From: Escherichia phage JSE
DNA: 64,000 bases
Direction: 5' to 3' (one strand)
Sequence record: EU863408
The notes under the pieces are model-generated. The model saw only the letters and a list, made by a program, of their open reading frames with translations, was not told the DNA's origin and did not search any database. Shown piece by piece: positions 4,463 to 58,062 of the stretch. Within the stretch, counting starts at the first letter, position 1. Each line of letters begins with the position of its first letter. Made by a program: the position numbers and the translations under genes.

Positions 4463-5017
4463 ATGCTCTTTTCTTTCTTCCCTGCCATTGAATACAACGG
4501 CAAGATGATTACTGACATTGTGCGCAATTACCGCGCATATTTCAACGCAATAATTTCTGATTATAACATACAAACATATTACATTCAAGGTAGTCCACGA
4601 CCGGAACAAGTTGCATATGAAGTATACGGAAACCAACAACTTTACTGGATCTTGCTGATGCTTAATGACGTATACGATCCGTTCCATGACTGGATCACCG
4701 ATCAAGAGACAGCATATGAATCAGCCGAACAACGATATGCAAATGTCGGAGGAAATCAAGTATTATACCACGTTGATATTGACGGAAACAAGTATTGGAA
4801 TCTTACCGAATATCCGAAAGGATCAAGCAATTGGTATGATAAAGGGGATATTCATCACCGTCATTTGCAGTTTCATGGTGCATTGTCGGCAGTGGACACA
4901 CTGGAAGATGCGATCCTCCGTAATGAGGAACGACGCAAGATCAAGATCATAGATCCTACACAAATTAAACAATTTATTAACGCATTCATTCGAGAAATGG
5001 AAAAGGCTGATGTGTAA
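4463..5017 (+). CDS. 53: baseplate wedge protein gp53-like
   Basis: 184 aa; position before gene 5. Confidence 0.8.
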   Translation: MLFSFFPAIEYNGKMITDIVRNYRAYFNAIISDYNIQTYYIQGSPRPEQVAYEVYGNQQLYWILLMLNDVYDPFHDWITDQETAYESAEQRYANVGGNQVLYHVDIDGNKYWNLTEYPKGSSNWYDKGDIHHRHLQFHGALSAVDTLEDAILRNEERRKIKIIDPTQIKQFINAFIREMEKADV

Positions 5018-5028
5018 GGTGATTAATT

Positions 5029-55368: not shown

Positions 55369-55548
55369 TTAGAACATTTTTGAAATTAATTCTGCTTTGA
55401 TTTCGCAGAGAACATCTAAAGATTTCTCGTCACCCGCTTTTGCTGCTTCTGCTTGCATTTTTGAAATGGCTTCAATCTCAGTGCAATTATAAGCCGCTTG
55501 AACTTTAGCGATTGCGATGATTGCCGATTCGATGGTTAAGTGTTTCAT
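55369..55548 (-). CDS. hypothetical protein (59 aa)
   Basis: conserved 5' leader GGAGAATCAAAC before ATG; below ORF-track cutoff. Confidence 0.45.
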   Translation of the reverse strand: MKHLTIESAIIAIAKVQAAYNCTEIEAISKMQAEAAKAGDEKSLDVLCEIKAELISKMF

Positions 55549-55580: not shown

Positions 55581-55609
55581 ATTATAGGGGATCGATGATC
55601 CCCTGTCAA
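55581..55609 (-). promoter_or_regulatory. repeated early-promoter cassette, copy B
   Basis: minus-strand TTGACA-GGGGATCATCGATCCCC-TATAAT. Confidence 0.55.
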
Positions 55610-55617
55610 CAACTTTT

Positions 55618-56136
55618 TTAGTTATTTTTTAATTGCTCATCTTGCAATAGGGCAATCACATGCTGGCGATGTTCTTCCGATTGAGGCACACCGAAAAAGT
55701 TTGTTTTGTAGAAATACTCTAATCGGTCTTCTCGTGTGCTCTCTTCCATCATGATCGCGGGTAGTCCGAGATTTCGGAAACGTCGCTTTTCTGCTGGCGT
55801 AAAATCACTGTAATACAACATAGAATCATCATTACCAGCAATGCTAAACTCATCCTTCATAAAGGAGAATATTGCGTTTAAACGCTGTTTACCGTCCACG
55901 ATTTCGATCTCATAGCGAGAGCCATCATCAATCTTAGCCATTGCGATAGCACCAACCGGAAAATCATTAATCAGGTTTTCGATAAACATACGTTTGTTTT
56001 CTGTGTCCCATACTAAAGGACGCTGATAATCTGGGTTCATGTTGATATAGCCATCTTCTAACCATGCATCATAAACAGAGATGACAAAGTTTTTAGTATT
56101 GGTATAGTAACGGCGTTTAGGCGTTAAACGGTTCAT
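55618..56136 (-). CDS. DUF262 (ParB-like nuclease/NTPase fold) domain protein
   Basis: 172 aa from internal ATG (MNRLTP); motifs PDYQRPLVWD, FPVGAI, VDGKQRLNAIFSF; ATG 1 nt after the upstream stop. Confidence 0.6.
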   Translation of the reverse strand: MNRLTPKRRYYTNTKNFVISVYDAWLEDGYINMNPDYQRPLVWDTENKRMFIENLINDFPVGAIAMAKIDDGSRYEIEIVDGKQRLNAIFSFMKDEFSIAGNDDSMLYYSDFTPAEKRRFRNLGLPAIMMEESTREDRLEYFYKTNFFGVPQSEEHRQHVIALLQDEQLKNN

Positions 56137-56137
56137 G

Positions 56138-56467
56138 TTATAGTCTCCTGAATGGATCATCACGTAAATCAATATCTTTTAAGAACTCATCCCATGAATG
56201 CCGGATATTGTTCTTAATTCTCCAGATAAGCGCAGGGATTGAACGCTCTCCCATCTGGAAGTAAGGATCATATGATCCGTATGCCCAATATGCTACTACA
56301 ATTCCACAATCAGCGCAATAGTATTCTATTTCACTTGCTGGCGACCAAAGTCCATCAATATGATCGGTGATCTTGCTTTCGATGTTATGGCTATGACAAT
56401 CAGGGCAACGGATGCAATGACCTTGTTTATCGTAATTTGACGTTAGCGAATACTTAAACAATCTCAT
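56138..56467 (-). CDS. hypothetical Zn-ribbon protein
   Basis: 109 aa; CIRCPDCH ... CADCG. Confidence 0.5.
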   Translation of the reverse strand: MRLFKYSLTSNYDKQGHCIRCPDCHSHNIESKITDHIDGLWSPASEIEYYCADCGIVVAYWAYGSYDPYFQMGERSIPALIWRIKNNIRHSWDEFLKDIDLRDDPFRRL

Positions 56468-57183
56468 TATAGATCCTTATTTGCTTCAAATACTGCCTTT
56501 GCGAATCCTCGCGGGGTAAGTGACCTTATAGTCTTTGTTTTCGTTCCTTTCCCGCCTAGCTTAGAATGCTGTTTACTGTACCCTTTATTAATCTGCAACG
56601 GTTTCTTTTCTGGCATTATAAAGCCTTGTCCGGACCATAAGCAAGTCTTTTTCGGGTACATATCACGGGCGGCAATATACTCAGGAAACGTAGGATGCTT
56701 ATCATCTTCCGGCAAATAACCGCCATATTCCCACGGATGGAACATATAATCAGGCTTACGCCACATGCTAGAGATAACGCTTACAGGATTCTCTATCATG
56801 TAGGGAACTCCTAGCCATTCACCCAAATAAGCGGTTATTTTAGCTGCCCTTACATCATGAACTTGAATCAATGGTCCTTGCTCTCGTTTCTTTCGTTCAA
56901 AGTGTGCAGCGCCACTAACAGCTAAATTGGTGCACGGTGGGAATGCAAAGATAATATCCGGTTTCCCCCATTCAAGGTCCATTGCTCTTTCCAGCCAGTT
57001 CAAATCAATCCAGGTGTTTACATAGGTAATGTTTGGATGTTCAAATCTGGTATTATACTTTTTGTATGTACCGTGGTCGGCGTCATCCGCATTAAAGCAG
57101 ACTACCTTATGACCTGCTTTAGCCCATTCTAGCCCCATTATCCCCGATCCGTCAAAGTTGCAGAATATTAATTTTTGTTTCAC
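56467..57183 (-). CDS. compact C5-cytosine methyltransferase-like protein
   Basis: 238 aa, GTG start; motif I-like FDGSGIMGL, motif IV DIIFAFPPCTNLAVSG, motif VI-like MIENPVSV; no obvious TRD. Confidence 0.45.
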   Translation of the reverse strand: MKQKLIFCNFDGSGIMGLEWAKAGHKVVCFNADDADHGTYKKYNTRFEHPNITYVNTWIDLNWLERAMDLEWGKPDIIFAFPPCTNLAVSGAAHFERKKREQGPLIQVHDVRAAKITAYLGEWLGVPYMIENPVSVISSMWRKPDYMFHPWEYGGYLPEDDKHPTFPEYIAARDMYPKKTCLWSGQGFIMPEKKPLQINKGYSKQHSKLGGKGTKTKTIRSLTPRGFAKAVFEANKDL

Positions 57184-57431
57184 GCTGCCCCCATTGGTTT
57201 GATAGTAACAGAATCTAAAAGACCTTTGTTAGCCAGTTCGCGGCAAGTTTTCAGATCCGCAACTTCCCAGCCAGCCGCAATCAGGTTATCAATGAGGCTG
57301 TTAGCAACTTCTTCGCTCATGAAAGAGCACTGTTTGCCGATGGTGTAGCGTACACGCTGTAATTTCAGTTTACGGAAGCCTTTAACGTTCAGGTCTTTAG
57401 CGATTTTCTTTGCGGTTTCGATGTTAGCCAT
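57180..57431 (-). CDS. hypothetical protein (MANIE N-terminus)
   Basis: 83 aa; stop overlaps the start of the methyltransferase-like gene. Confidence 0.5.
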   Translation of the reverse strand: MANIETAKKIAKDLNVKGFRKLKLQRVRYTIGKQCSFMSEEVANSLIDNLIAAGWEVADLKTCRELANKGLLDSVTIKPMGAA

Positions 57432-57471
57432 TGTTTGATTCTCCTAAGTGGTATCTCGTCTTGATGGTTGT

Positions 57472-57500
57472 ATTGTAGGGGAGTTATCCTCCCCTGTCAA
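57472..57500 (-). promoter_or_regulatory. repeated early-promoter cassette, copy C
   Basis: minus-strand TTGACA-GGGGAGGATAACTCCCC-TACAAT. Confidence 0.5.
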
Positions 57501-57514
57501 CACTTTTTATAAAA

Positions 57515-57750: not shown

Positions 57751-58062
57751 TTAGCGACGGCGACGATGTTTTTTGCGAGTTGCCTTTTTGTATGCTTTAT
57801 ATGCCTTTTTACCGTTTTTATATGCTTTTTTGGTATATGATTGATTTTTCTTATTGTTTTTGTATGTTTCCCGGTCAGTATTAATTTCGTTACATTCCAC
57901 GAAACGGTGTCGATGTTCTTGTGGTATGATCAAACATTTATCATAATTAACCATTTCGTTTTTCGTTGTTTGTGGTTTCTTTGGTGTGTTGTTTGCACTA
58001 ACAGACCCAGCAAAGAGAATGAGTATAGCGGTCATTAACGCAAACATTGTTTTCTTAATCAT
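57751..58062 (-). CDS. secreted small protein with lysine/arginine-rich tail
   Basis: 103 aa; N-terminal signal peptide; C-terminal KKAYKNGKKAYKAYKKATRKKHRRRR. Confidence 0.5.
   Translation of the reverse strand: MIKKTMFALMTAILILFAGSVSANNTPKKPQTTKNEMVNYDKCLIIPQEHRHRFVECNEINTDRETYKNNKKNQSYTKKAYKNGKKAYKAYKKATRKKHRRRR

What the first reader, a model, noticed from the sequence alone, without database searches (positions are those of the whole stretch)
55618..57505. Four-gene early operon: small protein, compact C5-methyltransferase-like enzyme, Zn-ribbon protein, stand-alone DUF262 domain
One repeated promoter cassette (57472-57500, minus strand) precedes four tightly coupled genes whose stops and starts overlap or are 1 nt apart. 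The 238-aa product keeps C5-MTase catalytic motifs (FDGSG, DIIFAFPPCTNLAVSG with the catalytic Cys, MIENPVSV) but is too short for a normal target-recognition domain. The last gene encodes only a DUF262 domain (PDYQRPLVWD, VDGKQRLNAIF), a domain best known as the N-terminal module of GmrSD-type restriction enzymes. A phage-encoded truncated C5-MTase-like enzyme coupled to a DUF262-only protein is not a T4 backbone feature and could be a DNA/nucleotide modification or anti-restriction module.
Basis: partly seen in the sequence, partly recalled or inferred. Interest (0 to 1): 0.75.

Follow-up and report, generated by a model that had tools for sequence, protein, structure and literature searches.

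The report
RB49-type phage accessory gene cassette
This is a catalogued early gene cassette of an RB49-like coliphage that strings together four unrelated accessory genes, including a small Dcm-like DNA cytosine methylase and a nuclease-less DUF262 protein, and comparative genomics gives no sign that they work as one module.

Summary
On the minus strand, one repeated promoter cassette (57501-57472) precedes four tightly packed genes of 83, 238, 109 and 172 aa, and a second copy of the cassette follows at 55610-55581.

The window is a Krischvirus, 98-99% identical to RB49, Phi1 and TB34. The cassette is the published PeSL promoter/terminator element of these phages.

- **238-aa protein.** It is not a truncated enzyme. 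It belongs to a very large family of compact phage Dcm-like C5-cytosine methyltransferases (5,795 proteins, 1,520 phage records). It is 55% identical over its full length to the phage KarlJaspers Dcm. The Dcm of the closely related phage K42 was shown by others to make 5mC when expressed alone and to trigger retron Ec86. Its four mutated residues are all conserved here.
- **172-aa protein.** It is a complete minimal DUF262 (ParB/Srx-fold) domain with no nuclease. It represents a widespread viral family of unknown function.
- **Linkage.** The four genes have different distributions. They are neighbours only in Krischvirus: 0 of 79 other Dcm loci and 0 of 78 other DUF262 loci show the pairing.

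The "coupled modification/anti-restriction module" reading is therefore not supported. This is ordinary, already catalogued material. The only open question is what the mini-DUF262 protein does.

The parts
57472..57501 (-). PeSL cassette upstream of g1: -35 TTGACA, a 17-nt spacer holding a GGGGAG...CTCCCC stem-loop, and -10 TACAAT. Inferred to be the early sigma-70 promoter of the unit and a terminator for upstream transcription.
   Evidence: The element type and its promoter and terminator activity are described in PMC2839356.
57180..57431 (-). g1, 83 aa, pI 9.5. Krischvirus-only ORFan (= RB49p190), function unknown.
   Evidence: phrog_14908, unknown function. tblastn finds it in 55 phage records, all Krischvirus-like. 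No Pfam or NCBIfam family.
56467..57183 (-). g2, 238 aa. Compact Dcm-like C5-cytosine DNA methyltransferase (= RB49p189). Motif I is FDGSG at residues 10-14, motif IV is PPC with Cys84, motif VI is ENP with Glu131, and Lys178/Lys179 are present. GTG start.
   Evidence: phrog_757 E 2.8e-90. 55% identical over full length to the KarlJaspers Dcm, and the closely related K42 Dcm was shown to be active. AF2 pLDDT 90.8 with top PDB folds DNMT3B/3A/DNMT1.
56138..56467 (-). g3, 109 aa. Four-cysteine zinc-ribbon protein (= RB49p188) with Cys18/21/24 and Cys51/54. Function unknown.
   Evidence: phrog_2993 E 5e-34. Sub-threshold Pfam zinc-ribbon hits. Homologues in Nonagvirus, Gorganvirus and others lie in unrelated contexts. 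Conserved cysteines shown.
55618..56136 (-). g4, 172 aa, pI 5.0. Minimal stand-alone DUF262 (ParB/Srx-fold NTPase-type) domain (= RB49p187). Motifs YQRxxVW, DGKQR and NFxGVPQSxEH are present. No nuclease domain.
   Evidence: PF03235 E 4.8e-20. Motif alignment. AF2 pLDDT 95.2. Folds matched: ParB, PadC, Noc, BrxU, KorB, Srx, Osa, SspE. Viral DUF262 proteins match at TM about 0.8.
55581..55610 (-). Next PeSL cassette, starting 8 nt after the g4 stop codon. Inferred terminator of the four-gene unit and promoter of the next small gene (55548..55369).
   Evidence: It matches the sigma-70 consensus 12/12.

Best explanation
The region is one PeSL-bounded early transcription unit in a hyperplastic region of an RB49-like Krischvirus. 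It joins four accessory genes of separate evolutionary origin rather than forming a functional module.

**g2 (methylase).** It is a member of the widespread compact phage 'Dcm-like' C5-cytosine DNA methyltransferase family. It most likely acts alone. It would use SAM and Cys84/Glu131 to place 5-methylcytosine at a short, infrequent motif in replicating phage and host DNA. CCWGG is the motif inferred for its studied relative. The benefit would be host-independent protection from methylation-sensitive type II restriction of the EcoRII type. The cost would be exposure to 5mC-sensing defences (retron Ec86, BrxU/GmrSD, Dazbog, McrBC).

**g4 (DUF262).** It is a complete but minimal DUF262/ParB-Srx nucleotide-binding domain with no nuclease. 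It belongs to a viral family that travels independently of any methylase. My best guess is that it is an NTP-dependent switch or binding protein used in phage-host or phage-phage conflict, but its target is unknown.

**g1 and g3.** They are a genus-specific ORFan and a zinc-ribbon protein, both of unknown function.

Shown here: gene structure, family memberships, folds, and absence of conserved linkage. Shown by others: promoter and terminator function of a PeSL, and MTase activity of a homologue. Inferred: early timing, MTase activity and specificity in this phage, anti-restriction benefit, and the role of g4.
For: - **Identity of the window.** It is 98-99% identical to RB49, Phi1, TB34 and other Krischvirus genomes across the region. 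The same genes are annotated in RB49.
- **PeSL.** Six near-identical cassettes lie on the coding strand, with consensus promoters. PeSLs are published as strong sigma-70-like promoters plus terminating stem-loops that mediate ORFan shuffling (PMC2839356).
- **MTase sequence.** phrog_757 matches at E 2.8e-90. The family has 5,795 homologues; the top 120 listed are about 220-260 aa, and 1,520 phage records hold one.
- **MTase homologue.** g2 is 55% identical over its full length to the KarlJaspers Dcm, with C82/E128/K175/K176 conserved as C84/E131/K178/K179. The Dcm of phage K42, whose genome is 95.4% identical to KarlJaspers, gave high 5mC in msDNA by LC-MS when expressed alone; the quadruple mutant did not.
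- **MTase fold.** AF2 pLDDT is 90.8. The best PDB folds are DNMT3B (E 7.8e-8), DNMT3A, DNMT1, DIM2 and MET1.
- **DUF262.** PF03235 matches at E 4.8e-20. AF2 pLDDT is 95.2 with a ParB/Srx fold. A full-library search gave 441 cluster representatives at E<=1e-10; the best-scoring ones listed are mostly 160-190 aa proteins or 250-290 aa proteins with the domain at the C-terminus.
- **No conserved linkage.** Of 80 viral loci with the mini-DUF262, only the 2 Krischvirus loci have the compact Dcm within 6 kb. Of 80 loci with the compact Dcm, only the 1 Krischvirus locus has DUF262, Zn-ribbon or g1 within 5 kb.
- **Different contexts elsewhere.** The DUF262 gene sits among unrelated genes in RB43, Miro and a P22-like phage, and its neighbours are lineage-specific. 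The Zn-ribbon gene lies in unrelated contexts in 9g and Isfahan.
- **Plasticity inside the genus.** RB49 has an extra 81-aa gene between g1 and g2. Phage kaaroe has an extra 59-aa gene between g3 and g4.
Against: - All 55 Krischvirus-type records keep the four genes at >=90% amino-acid identity (one MTase match at 90-95%, all others >=95%), with coupled stops and starts. Some co-function within this genus therefore cannot be excluded.
- HPLC/MS of Krischvirus TB34 DNA reported no detectable modified nucleosides (PMC13390438). That fits a rare-site methylase: 27 CCWGG in 64 kb, roughly 0.2% of cytosines by my estimate. It equally fits an enzyme that is inactive on phage DNA.
- The Pfam PF00145 score (15.7 bits) is below the curated cut-off of 22. 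A family profile finds no solved structure by sequence.
- The CCWGG specificity of the studied homologue is itself inferred. The dcm+ host MG1655 did not methylate the msDNA appreciably.
Confidence: 0.8

Rival explanations
1. Integrated module. The compact MTase lacks its own target-recognition domain, and the co-translated Zn-ribbon and/or DUF262 proteins supply DNA recognition or otherwise act with it as one modification/anti-restriction machine.
For: Stops and starts are coupled. All four genes are retained in all 55 Krischvirus-type records. From my own knowledge, not tested here: fusions of ParB-like domains with DNA methylases exist elsewhere.
Against: A 55%-identical homologue gave 5mC when expressed alone. 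0 of 79 non-Krischvirus Dcm loci carry DUF262, Zn-ribbon or g1. 0 of 78 non-Krischvirus mini-DUF262 loci carry this Dcm. Extra ORFs are inserted between the genes in RB49 and kaaroe. g4 is acidic (pI 5.0), which is not what I would expect of a DNA-recognition subunit.
Confidence: 0.07
2. The mini-DUF262 protein is a counter-defence factor. It would be a nuclease-less mimic that competes with or poisons host DUF262-based sensors of modified DNA (GmrSD/BrxU, Dazbog, SspE, Menshen NsnA). In Krischvirus that would offset the liability created by the phage's own 5mC.
For: All three DUF262 motifs are kept in a minimal fold. The best PADLOC match is NsnA at E 1.9e-20. BrxU shares the fold. BrxU cuts 5mC DNA (PMC13390438). 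Dazbog, a DUF262 system, is escaped by mutations in a phage C5 methylase. The gene sits in early accessory regions of several phage lineages, next to abc1/abc2 in a P22-like phage. Slopekvirus phages, which carry a homologue, also encode Dcm and Dam (PMC5219037).
Against: There is no experimental evidence. The family occurs in many phages with no linked methylase. Known GmrSD inhibitors (Ip1-3) are unrelated injected proteins. Strict conservation of the NTPase-type motifs suggests an enzyme or switch rather than a passive mimic.
Confidence: 0.1
3. The mini-DUF262 protein is the sensor half of a phage-borne restriction or exclusion function against competitor phages with modified DNA such as T-even phages. 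It would work with a separately encoded nuclease.
For: A two-gene type IV system is known in which GmrS1 has only the ParB_n domain and GmrSD2 supplies the HNH nuclease. From established knowledge, Krischvirus and T-even phages share hosts.
Against: No nuclease partner is conserved next to it in any lineage. The adjacent Zn-ribbon protein has no invariant histidine of the kind a His-Me finger nuclease needs. Pfam found no DUF1524/HNH match in g1-g4.
Confidence: 0.04
4. g2 starts a cytosine hypermodification pathway (5mC, then hmC, then glycosylated hmC). This would explain the glucosyl-hmC reported for Krischvirus SAP.
For: SAP was reported to carry hmC and alpha-glucosyl-hmC although no known pathway genes were found in Krischvirus (PMC13390438).
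Against: TB34, whose genome is 99.96% identical, has canonical cytosines. In the 5.6-kb locus fetched here, SAP and TB34 have identical sequence across all four genes. The paper reports no hmC synthase or glucosyltransferase. [quoted passage not shown]
Confidence: 0.02

Closest known systems
Compact phage Dcm-like C5-cytosine methyltransferase (phrog_757), e.g. KarlJaspers/K42 Dcm, the trigger of retron Ec86
   Same: Same length class (236 vs 238 aa) and 55% identity end to end. The catalytic Cys, the ENP Glu and the KK pair are all conserved. Both are single orphan genes in a phage early or accessory region.
   Different: The host phage is a T4-like myovirus rather than a Drexlerviridae siphovirus. 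Activity, specificity and retron triggering have not been tested for the Krischvirus protein. The variable segments (residues 41-75 and 193-215) are only 26-43% identical.
Canonical bacterial type II C5-MTases (PF00145; M.HhaI and E. coli Dcm type) and the DNMT3 catalytic domain
   Same: Rossmann-like class I MTase fold and motifs I, IV and VI. The best structural matches are DNMT3B/3A/DNMT1.
   Different: The Pfam score is below the gathering threshold, and a family profile finds no solved structure by sequence. The protein is about 90-230 aa shorter than the named bacterial enzymes (lengths from my own knowledge). No large target-recognition domain is evident.
GmrSD/BrxU type IV restriction enzymes
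   Same: The N-terminal DUF262 domain matches, with the QR...W, DG(Q/K)QR and N..G motifs. BrxU (7p9k) matches by fold at TMq 0.53.
   Different: g4 has no DUF1524/His-Me nuclease domain. It ends at residue 172 and has no adjacent nuclease gene. It is therefore not a restriction enzyme.
Stand-alone ParB/Srx-fold proteins (PadC, sulfiredoxin, Osa)
   Same: Each is a single-domain ParB/Srx-fold protein, and these nucleotide-binding folds are the structural matches.
   Different: There is no detectable sequence relationship. g4 carries DUF262-specific motifs rather than the ParB GxxR box (from my own knowledge).
PeSL (promoter-early stem-loop) cassettes of RB49/Phi1
   Same: The sequence architecture is identical, and the window comes from the same phage group.
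   Different: None. This is the same element.

Membership tests
C5-cytosine DNA methyltransferase superfamily | Motif I (FxGxG, SAM binding) | tested here: met
   FDGSG at residues 10-14. These positions are nearly invariant in the 61-sequence family alignment.
C5-cytosine DNA methyltransferase superfamily | Motif IV Pro-Cys with the catalytic cysteine | tested here: met
   P82-P83-C84 is invariant. C84 aligns with C82 of the K42/KarlJaspers Dcm, one of the four residues changed in its inactive mutant.
C5-cytosine DNA methyltransferase superfamily | Motif VI ENV-type glutamate | tested here: met
   E131-N132-P133 is invariant and aligns with E128 of the K42 Dcm.
C5-cytosine DNA methyltransferase superfamily | Score above the Pfam PF00145 gathering threshold | tested here: not met
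   15.7 bits against a cut-off of 22, covering only profile positions 7-87. The family is too divergent for the Pfam model.
C5-cytosine DNA methyltransferase superfamily | Class I Rossmann-like MTase fold closest to DNA C5-MTases | tested here: met
   AF2 pLDDT 90.8. Foldseek top hits are DNMT3B (6kdt, E 7.8e-8), DNMT3A, DNMT1, DIM2 and MET1.
C5-cytosine DNA methyltransferase superfamily | Distinct target-recognition domain between motifs VIII and IX | tested here: inconclusive
   Only about 80 residues (141-220) lie between the core and the C-terminal helix. Residues 141-192 are well conserved, 71% identical to the KarlJaspers Dcm. I did not map which residues contact DNA.
C5-cytosine DNA methyltransferase superfamily | SAM-dependent formation of 5mC in DNA | not testable with these tools
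   Reported by LC-MS for the K42 homologue. TB34 virion DNA showed no detectable modified nucleosides.
Compact phage Dcm-like family (phrog_757) | Full-length match to the family profile and the family's typical size | tested here: met
   E 2.8e-90, residues 1-237 on profile positions 12-220 of 247. The top 120 homologues listed are about 220-260 aa.
GmrSD type IV restriction enzyme | N-terminal DUF262 domain with QR/DGQQR motifs | tested here: met
   PF03235 E 4.8e-20. Y37-Q38-R39, W43 and D81-G82-K83-Q84-R85 are conserved.
GmrSD type IV restriction enzyme | C-terminal DUF1524 His-Me finger nuclease domain, fused or in an adjacent gene | tested here: not met
   The protein ends at residue 172, with the DUF262 fold filling its whole length. 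No DUF1524 or HNH hit appears in g1-g4. No conserved nuclease neighbour appears in 70 loci.
ParB/Srx fold | Structural match to ParB N-domain or sulfiredoxin nucleotide-binding folds | tested here: met
   Foldseek probability 1.00 to ParB (7bm8, 6sdk), PadC, Noc and KorB, 0.99 to sulfiredoxin, and 1.00 to BrxU.
ParB/Srx fold | NTP binding or hydrolysis | not testable with these tools
PeSL regulatory cassette | Sigma-70 -35 and -10 hexamers with a G-tract/C-tract stem-loop, repeated in intergenic positions of a hyperplastic region | tested here: met
   Six copies of GTTGACAGGGG-N-CCCCTAtAAT lie on the coding strand. The definition is in PMC2839356.
Operon (single transcription unit) | One promoter, no internal terminator, coupled reading frames | tested here: met
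   Actual transcripts were not examined.

The most novel reading that the evidence does not exclude
The nuclease-less mini-DUF262 protein is a new class of phage counter-defence factor. It would mimic or poison DUF262-based sensors of modified DNA (BrxU/GmrSD, Dazbog, Menshen). Krischvirus would co-express it with its own Dcm-like methylase to neutralise the 5mC liability that the methylase creates.
Probability: 0.1. Interest if true: 0.7.

Novelty: already known. Interest (0 to 1): 0.2.

Why it matters
As it stands this matters little. The genes, the promoter cassette and the methylase family are all catalogued. In RB49 RefSeq the gene is annotated 'DNA methyltransferase', and some records label g4 'DUF262 domain protein'. 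A close family member of the methylase already has published biochemistry.

Two points are of practical use:
- Anyone using Krischvirus phages such as RB49, TB34 or SAP as 'unmodified DNA' controls should know they encode a probably active Dcm-like enzyme. It could create 5mC at rare sites and could trigger retron Ec86 or type IV enzymes.
- The mini-DUF262 family is widespread in viruses and has no assigned function. It has 441 cluster representatives at 50% identity with E<=1e-10 and occurs in RB43-like, Slopekvirus and P22-like phages. It is a cheap target for an anti-defence or exclusion screen.

Tried and rejected
- **MTase against solved structures by sequence.** A phmmer search and a 61-sequence profile search of PDB sequences both found nothing. 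Only the fold comparison linked the protein to DNMTs.
- **Word-indexed homology searches.** They were nearly empty for DUF262 (7 hits) and for the Zn ribbon (1 hit). The full-library HMMER search was needed for DUF262.
- **Zn ribbon as a His-Me nuclease partner of DUF262.** Rejected: no invariant histidine, and the gene is absent next to DUF262 in other lineages.
- **N-terminal extensions of the longer mini-DUF262 relatives (250-360 aa).** Pfam scans gave no domain, so they offer no functional hint.
- **This locus as the explanation of the SAP (modified) versus TB34 (unmodified) puzzle.** Rejected: the sequence is identical across all four genes.
- **Motif counts as a test of MTase specificity.** CCWGG is under-represented (27 vs 54 expected), but so are GGCC, CCSGG and others. 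The counts are uninformative.
- **Literature search for methylome data on this MTase family.** It returned nothing relevant.
Full report
**What is there.**
- g1 runs 57431..57180 (83 aa).
- g2 runs 57183..56467 (238 aa). Its GTG start overlaps the g1 stop in GTGA.
- g3 runs 56467..56138 (109 aa). Its ATG overlaps the g2 stop in TAATG.
- g4 runs 56136..55618 (172 aa). It starts one base after the g3 stop.

All quoted peptide motifs are present. Each gene has a Shine-Dalgarno-like run upstream.

The promoter cassette GTTGACAGGGGAGGATAACTCCCCTACAAT lies at 57501-57472. It is one of six near-identical copies on this strand in the window. It matches the sigma-70 consensus 11/12. The copy at 55610-55581, which starts 8 nt after the g4 stop, matches 12/12. 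No terminator-like site on the coding strand lies inside the unit.

**Where the window comes from.** The region is 98-99% identical to RB49, Phi1, GEC-3S, TB34 and about 50 other Krischvirus-type genomes. The four genes correspond to RB49p190, p189, p188 and p187, downstream of many small ORFans and upstream of alt.

The repeated cassette is the published PeSL (promoter-early stem-loop). It is described as a strong sigma-70-like promoter plus a stem-loop terminator, enriched in hyperplastic regions, that mediates shuffling of ORFan cassettes (PMC2839356; PMC4122927). 'Early' timing here is inferred from that promoter type and was not measured.

**The 238-aa protein.**
- *Sequence evidence.* Pfam's DNA_methylase model gives only 15.7 bits, below its cut-off of 22. 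NCBIfam gives nothing. PHROGs places the protein in phrog_757 'DNA methyltransferase' at E 2.8e-90 over its full length.
- *Family size.* The family holds 5,795 proteins in the large database, and the top 120 listed are about 220-260 aa. It appears in 1,520 phage records, including Drexlerviridae, Dhillonvirus, rV5-like and PVP-SE1-like phages and Klebsiella siphoviruses. The protein is therefore not a truncated enzyme; this is the family's native size.
- *Studied homologue.* g2 is 55% identical end to end to bas06_0055 of phage KarlJaspers, a 711-bp 'Dcm-like C5 cytosine methyltransferase'. A bioRxiv study (10.1101/2023.08.16.553469) worked on the 711-bp dcm of phage K42, whose genome is 95.4% identical to KarlJaspers. 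All four escapers of retron Ec86 disrupt or potentially disrupt that gene. Expressed alone from pBAD, it gave a high 5mC level in msDNA by LC-MS. A C82A/E128A/K175A/K176A mutant gave only a low level.
- *Catalytic residues.* Those four residues align with C84, E131, K178 and K179 of the window protein. All are invariant in a 61-sequence family alignment.
- *Fold.* A family profile finds no solved structure by sequence. An AF2 model (pLDDT 90.8) is closest to DNMT3B (E 7.8e-8), DNMT3A, DNMT1, DIM2 and MET1.
- *Conclusion and caveat.* I conclude that g2 is a bona fide compact orphan C5-cytosine DNA MTase that needs no partner. Its specificity is not established. CCWGG was inferred for K42 Dcm from mutating the msDNA motif, yet the dcm+ host barely methylated that msDNA. 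The probable DNA-facing segment 141-192 is 71% identical between the two proteins, so a shared specificity is plausible.

**The 172-aa protein.**
- *Domain.* PF03235 (GmrSD_N/DUF262) matches at E 4.8e-20. The best PADLOC match is the Menshen sensor NsnA.
- *Motifs.* Alignments show invariant YQR..VW, DGKQR and a C-terminal NFxGVPQSxEH motif. I recall, but did not check here, that three motifs define the DUF262 domain. On that basis the domain is complete in a minimal form.
- *Fold.* The AF2 model is very confident (pLDDT 95.2). It matches ParB N-domains, PadC, Noc, BrxU, KorB, sulfiredoxin, Osa and SspE. It matches many viral 'GmrSD N-terminal domain-containing' proteins at TM about 0.8.
- *What is missing.* There is no DUF1524/His-Me nuclease domain, and no nuclease gene is conserved beside it. 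It is not a GmrSD enzyme.
- *Family.* A full-library HMMER search finds 441 cluster representatives at E<=1e-10. The best-scoring ones are mostly 160-190 aa stand-alone proteins or 250-290 aa proteins with an unannotated N-terminal extension.

**The other two genes.** g3 is a four-cysteine zinc-ribbon protein (phrog_2993). Cys18/21/24 and Cys51/54 are conserved, and no histidine is invariant. g1 is a Krischvirus-only ORFan.

**Are the four genes a module?** Their distributions differ sharply. g1 is in 55 phage records, g2 in 1,520, g3 in 91 and g4 in 304. Only the 55 Krischvirus-type records hold all four.

Two systematic neighbourhood tests gave the same answer:
- Of 80 IMG/VR loci encoding a mini-DUF262, only the two Krischvirus loci have the compact Dcm within 6 kb. 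The neighbours are otherwise lineage-specific.
- Of 80 loci encoding the compact Dcm (52-99% identity), only the one Krischvirus locus has DUF262, Zn-ribbon or g1 within 5 kb.

Individual contexts agree. In RB43, Miro and a P22-like phage the DUF262 gene sits among unrelated genes. In 9g and Isfahan the Zn-ribbon gene does likewise.

The unit is also plastic inside the genus. RB49 and most relatives carry an extra 81-aa gene between g1 and g2. The window, like G2248 and E26, lacks it. Phage kaaroe carries an extra 59-aa gene between g3 and g4.

The most economical reading is a PeSL cassette that has accumulated independent accessory genes. Fixation of all four in the genus at >=90% identity (one MTase match at 90-95%, the rest >=95%) leaves room for lineage-specific co-function, but nothing requires it.

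**How it most likely works.**
- *Transcription and translation (inferred).* Host RNA polymerase transcribes the unit from the PeSL immediately after infection, and translational coupling yields the four proteins.
- *g2 (by homology).* It methylates C5 of cytosine at a short, infrequent motif in phage and host DNA. This gives host-independent protection against methylation-sensitive restriction such as EcoRII; that EcoRII is blocked by Dcm methylation is established knowledge.
- *Cost of 5mC.* It is a known liability. BrxU cuts 5mC DNA (PMC13390438). Escape from Dazbog maps to a phage C5 methylase. K42 Dcm triggers retron Ec86.
- *g4 (speculative).* A role in buffering that liability is attractive but untested, and I give it about 10%.

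HPLC/MS found no modified nucleosides in TB34 DNA. This is compatible with rare-site methylation. The window holds 27 CCWGG sites in 64 kb, which I estimate at roughly 0.2% of cytosines. It is also the main caveat about activity in vivo.

**Verdict.** The identification of the two enzymatic domains is supported. The 'truncated enzyme' and 'coupled module' interpretations are not. Everything except the function of g1, g3 and g4 is already catalogued, so interest is low.

Noticed in passing
window 57180-57186, compared with L001 (RB49) 4780-5025: The window lacks the 81-aa gene RB49p189.1 that most Krischvirus carry between g1 and the MTase. The junction falls in an imperfect direct repeat (TGAAAnnAAAATTAAT) present at the starts of both p189.1 and the MTase. 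The deletion changes the MTase start codon from ATG in RB49 to GTG in the window.
   Followed up: yes
L092 (kaaroe) 1036-1215: Phage kaaroe has an extra 59-aa ORF inserted between the Zn-ribbon and DUF262 genes. ELT3, ELT4 and FL04 also show longer, four-piece matches across this locus. This points to further plasticity inside the 'operon'.
   Followed up: partly
L006 (SAP) 1651-1810, compared with L002 (TB34) 1651-1731: SAP was reported to carry hmC and glucosyl-hmC by an unknown pathway (PMC13390438). In this locus it differs from unmodified TB34 only by a 79-bp tandem duplication of the PeSL directly downstream of the DUF262 gene and a few mostly single-base indels in the intergenic regions. 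The sequence of the four genes is identical. The duplication could be an assembly artefact. I suspect, without evidence, that the SAP modification result could reflect contaminating T-even DNA.
   Followed up: partly
window 57751-58062 (minus strand): A PeSL-flanked 103-aa ORF has what looks by eye like an N-terminal signal peptide and a very basic tail (…KKAYKAYKKATRKKHRRRR). It occupies the slot where RB49 has an unrelated 158-aa protein that also begins like a signal peptide (p192). TB34 and kaaroe have nothing there. It is a textbook PeSL-mediated ORFan swap next to the finding.
   Followed up: partly
whole window: Short-palindrome bias against a first-order Markov expectation. GGCC is strongly avoided (21 vs 105). 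CCWGG (27 vs 54), CCSGG (16 vs 42), TCGA and AGCT are depleted. GATC is enriched (374 vs 259).
   Followed up: no
window 57183-57431 (g1): The 83-aa ORFan gives a weak local hit (E 2.6e-5) to positions 722-785 of the PADLOC model RT_UG35, a DRT reverse transcriptase. I suspect it is a chance or coiled-coil-type match; this was not examined.
   Followed up: no
proteins P0145-P0275: Many of the best-scoring mini-DUF262 relatives are 250-290 aa, with a roughly 120-aa N-terminal extension that has no Pfam match, followed by the same minimal domain ending at the C-terminus. The extension could be the specificity or targeting part of the family.
   Followed up: partly
hits H48, H50 and H52: Several records named 'Campylobacter phage' (C12, C9, A140; 128-141 kb) carry the compact Dcm at the same identity as E. 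coli rV5-like phages. They may be mislabelled or contaminated records.
   Followed up: no
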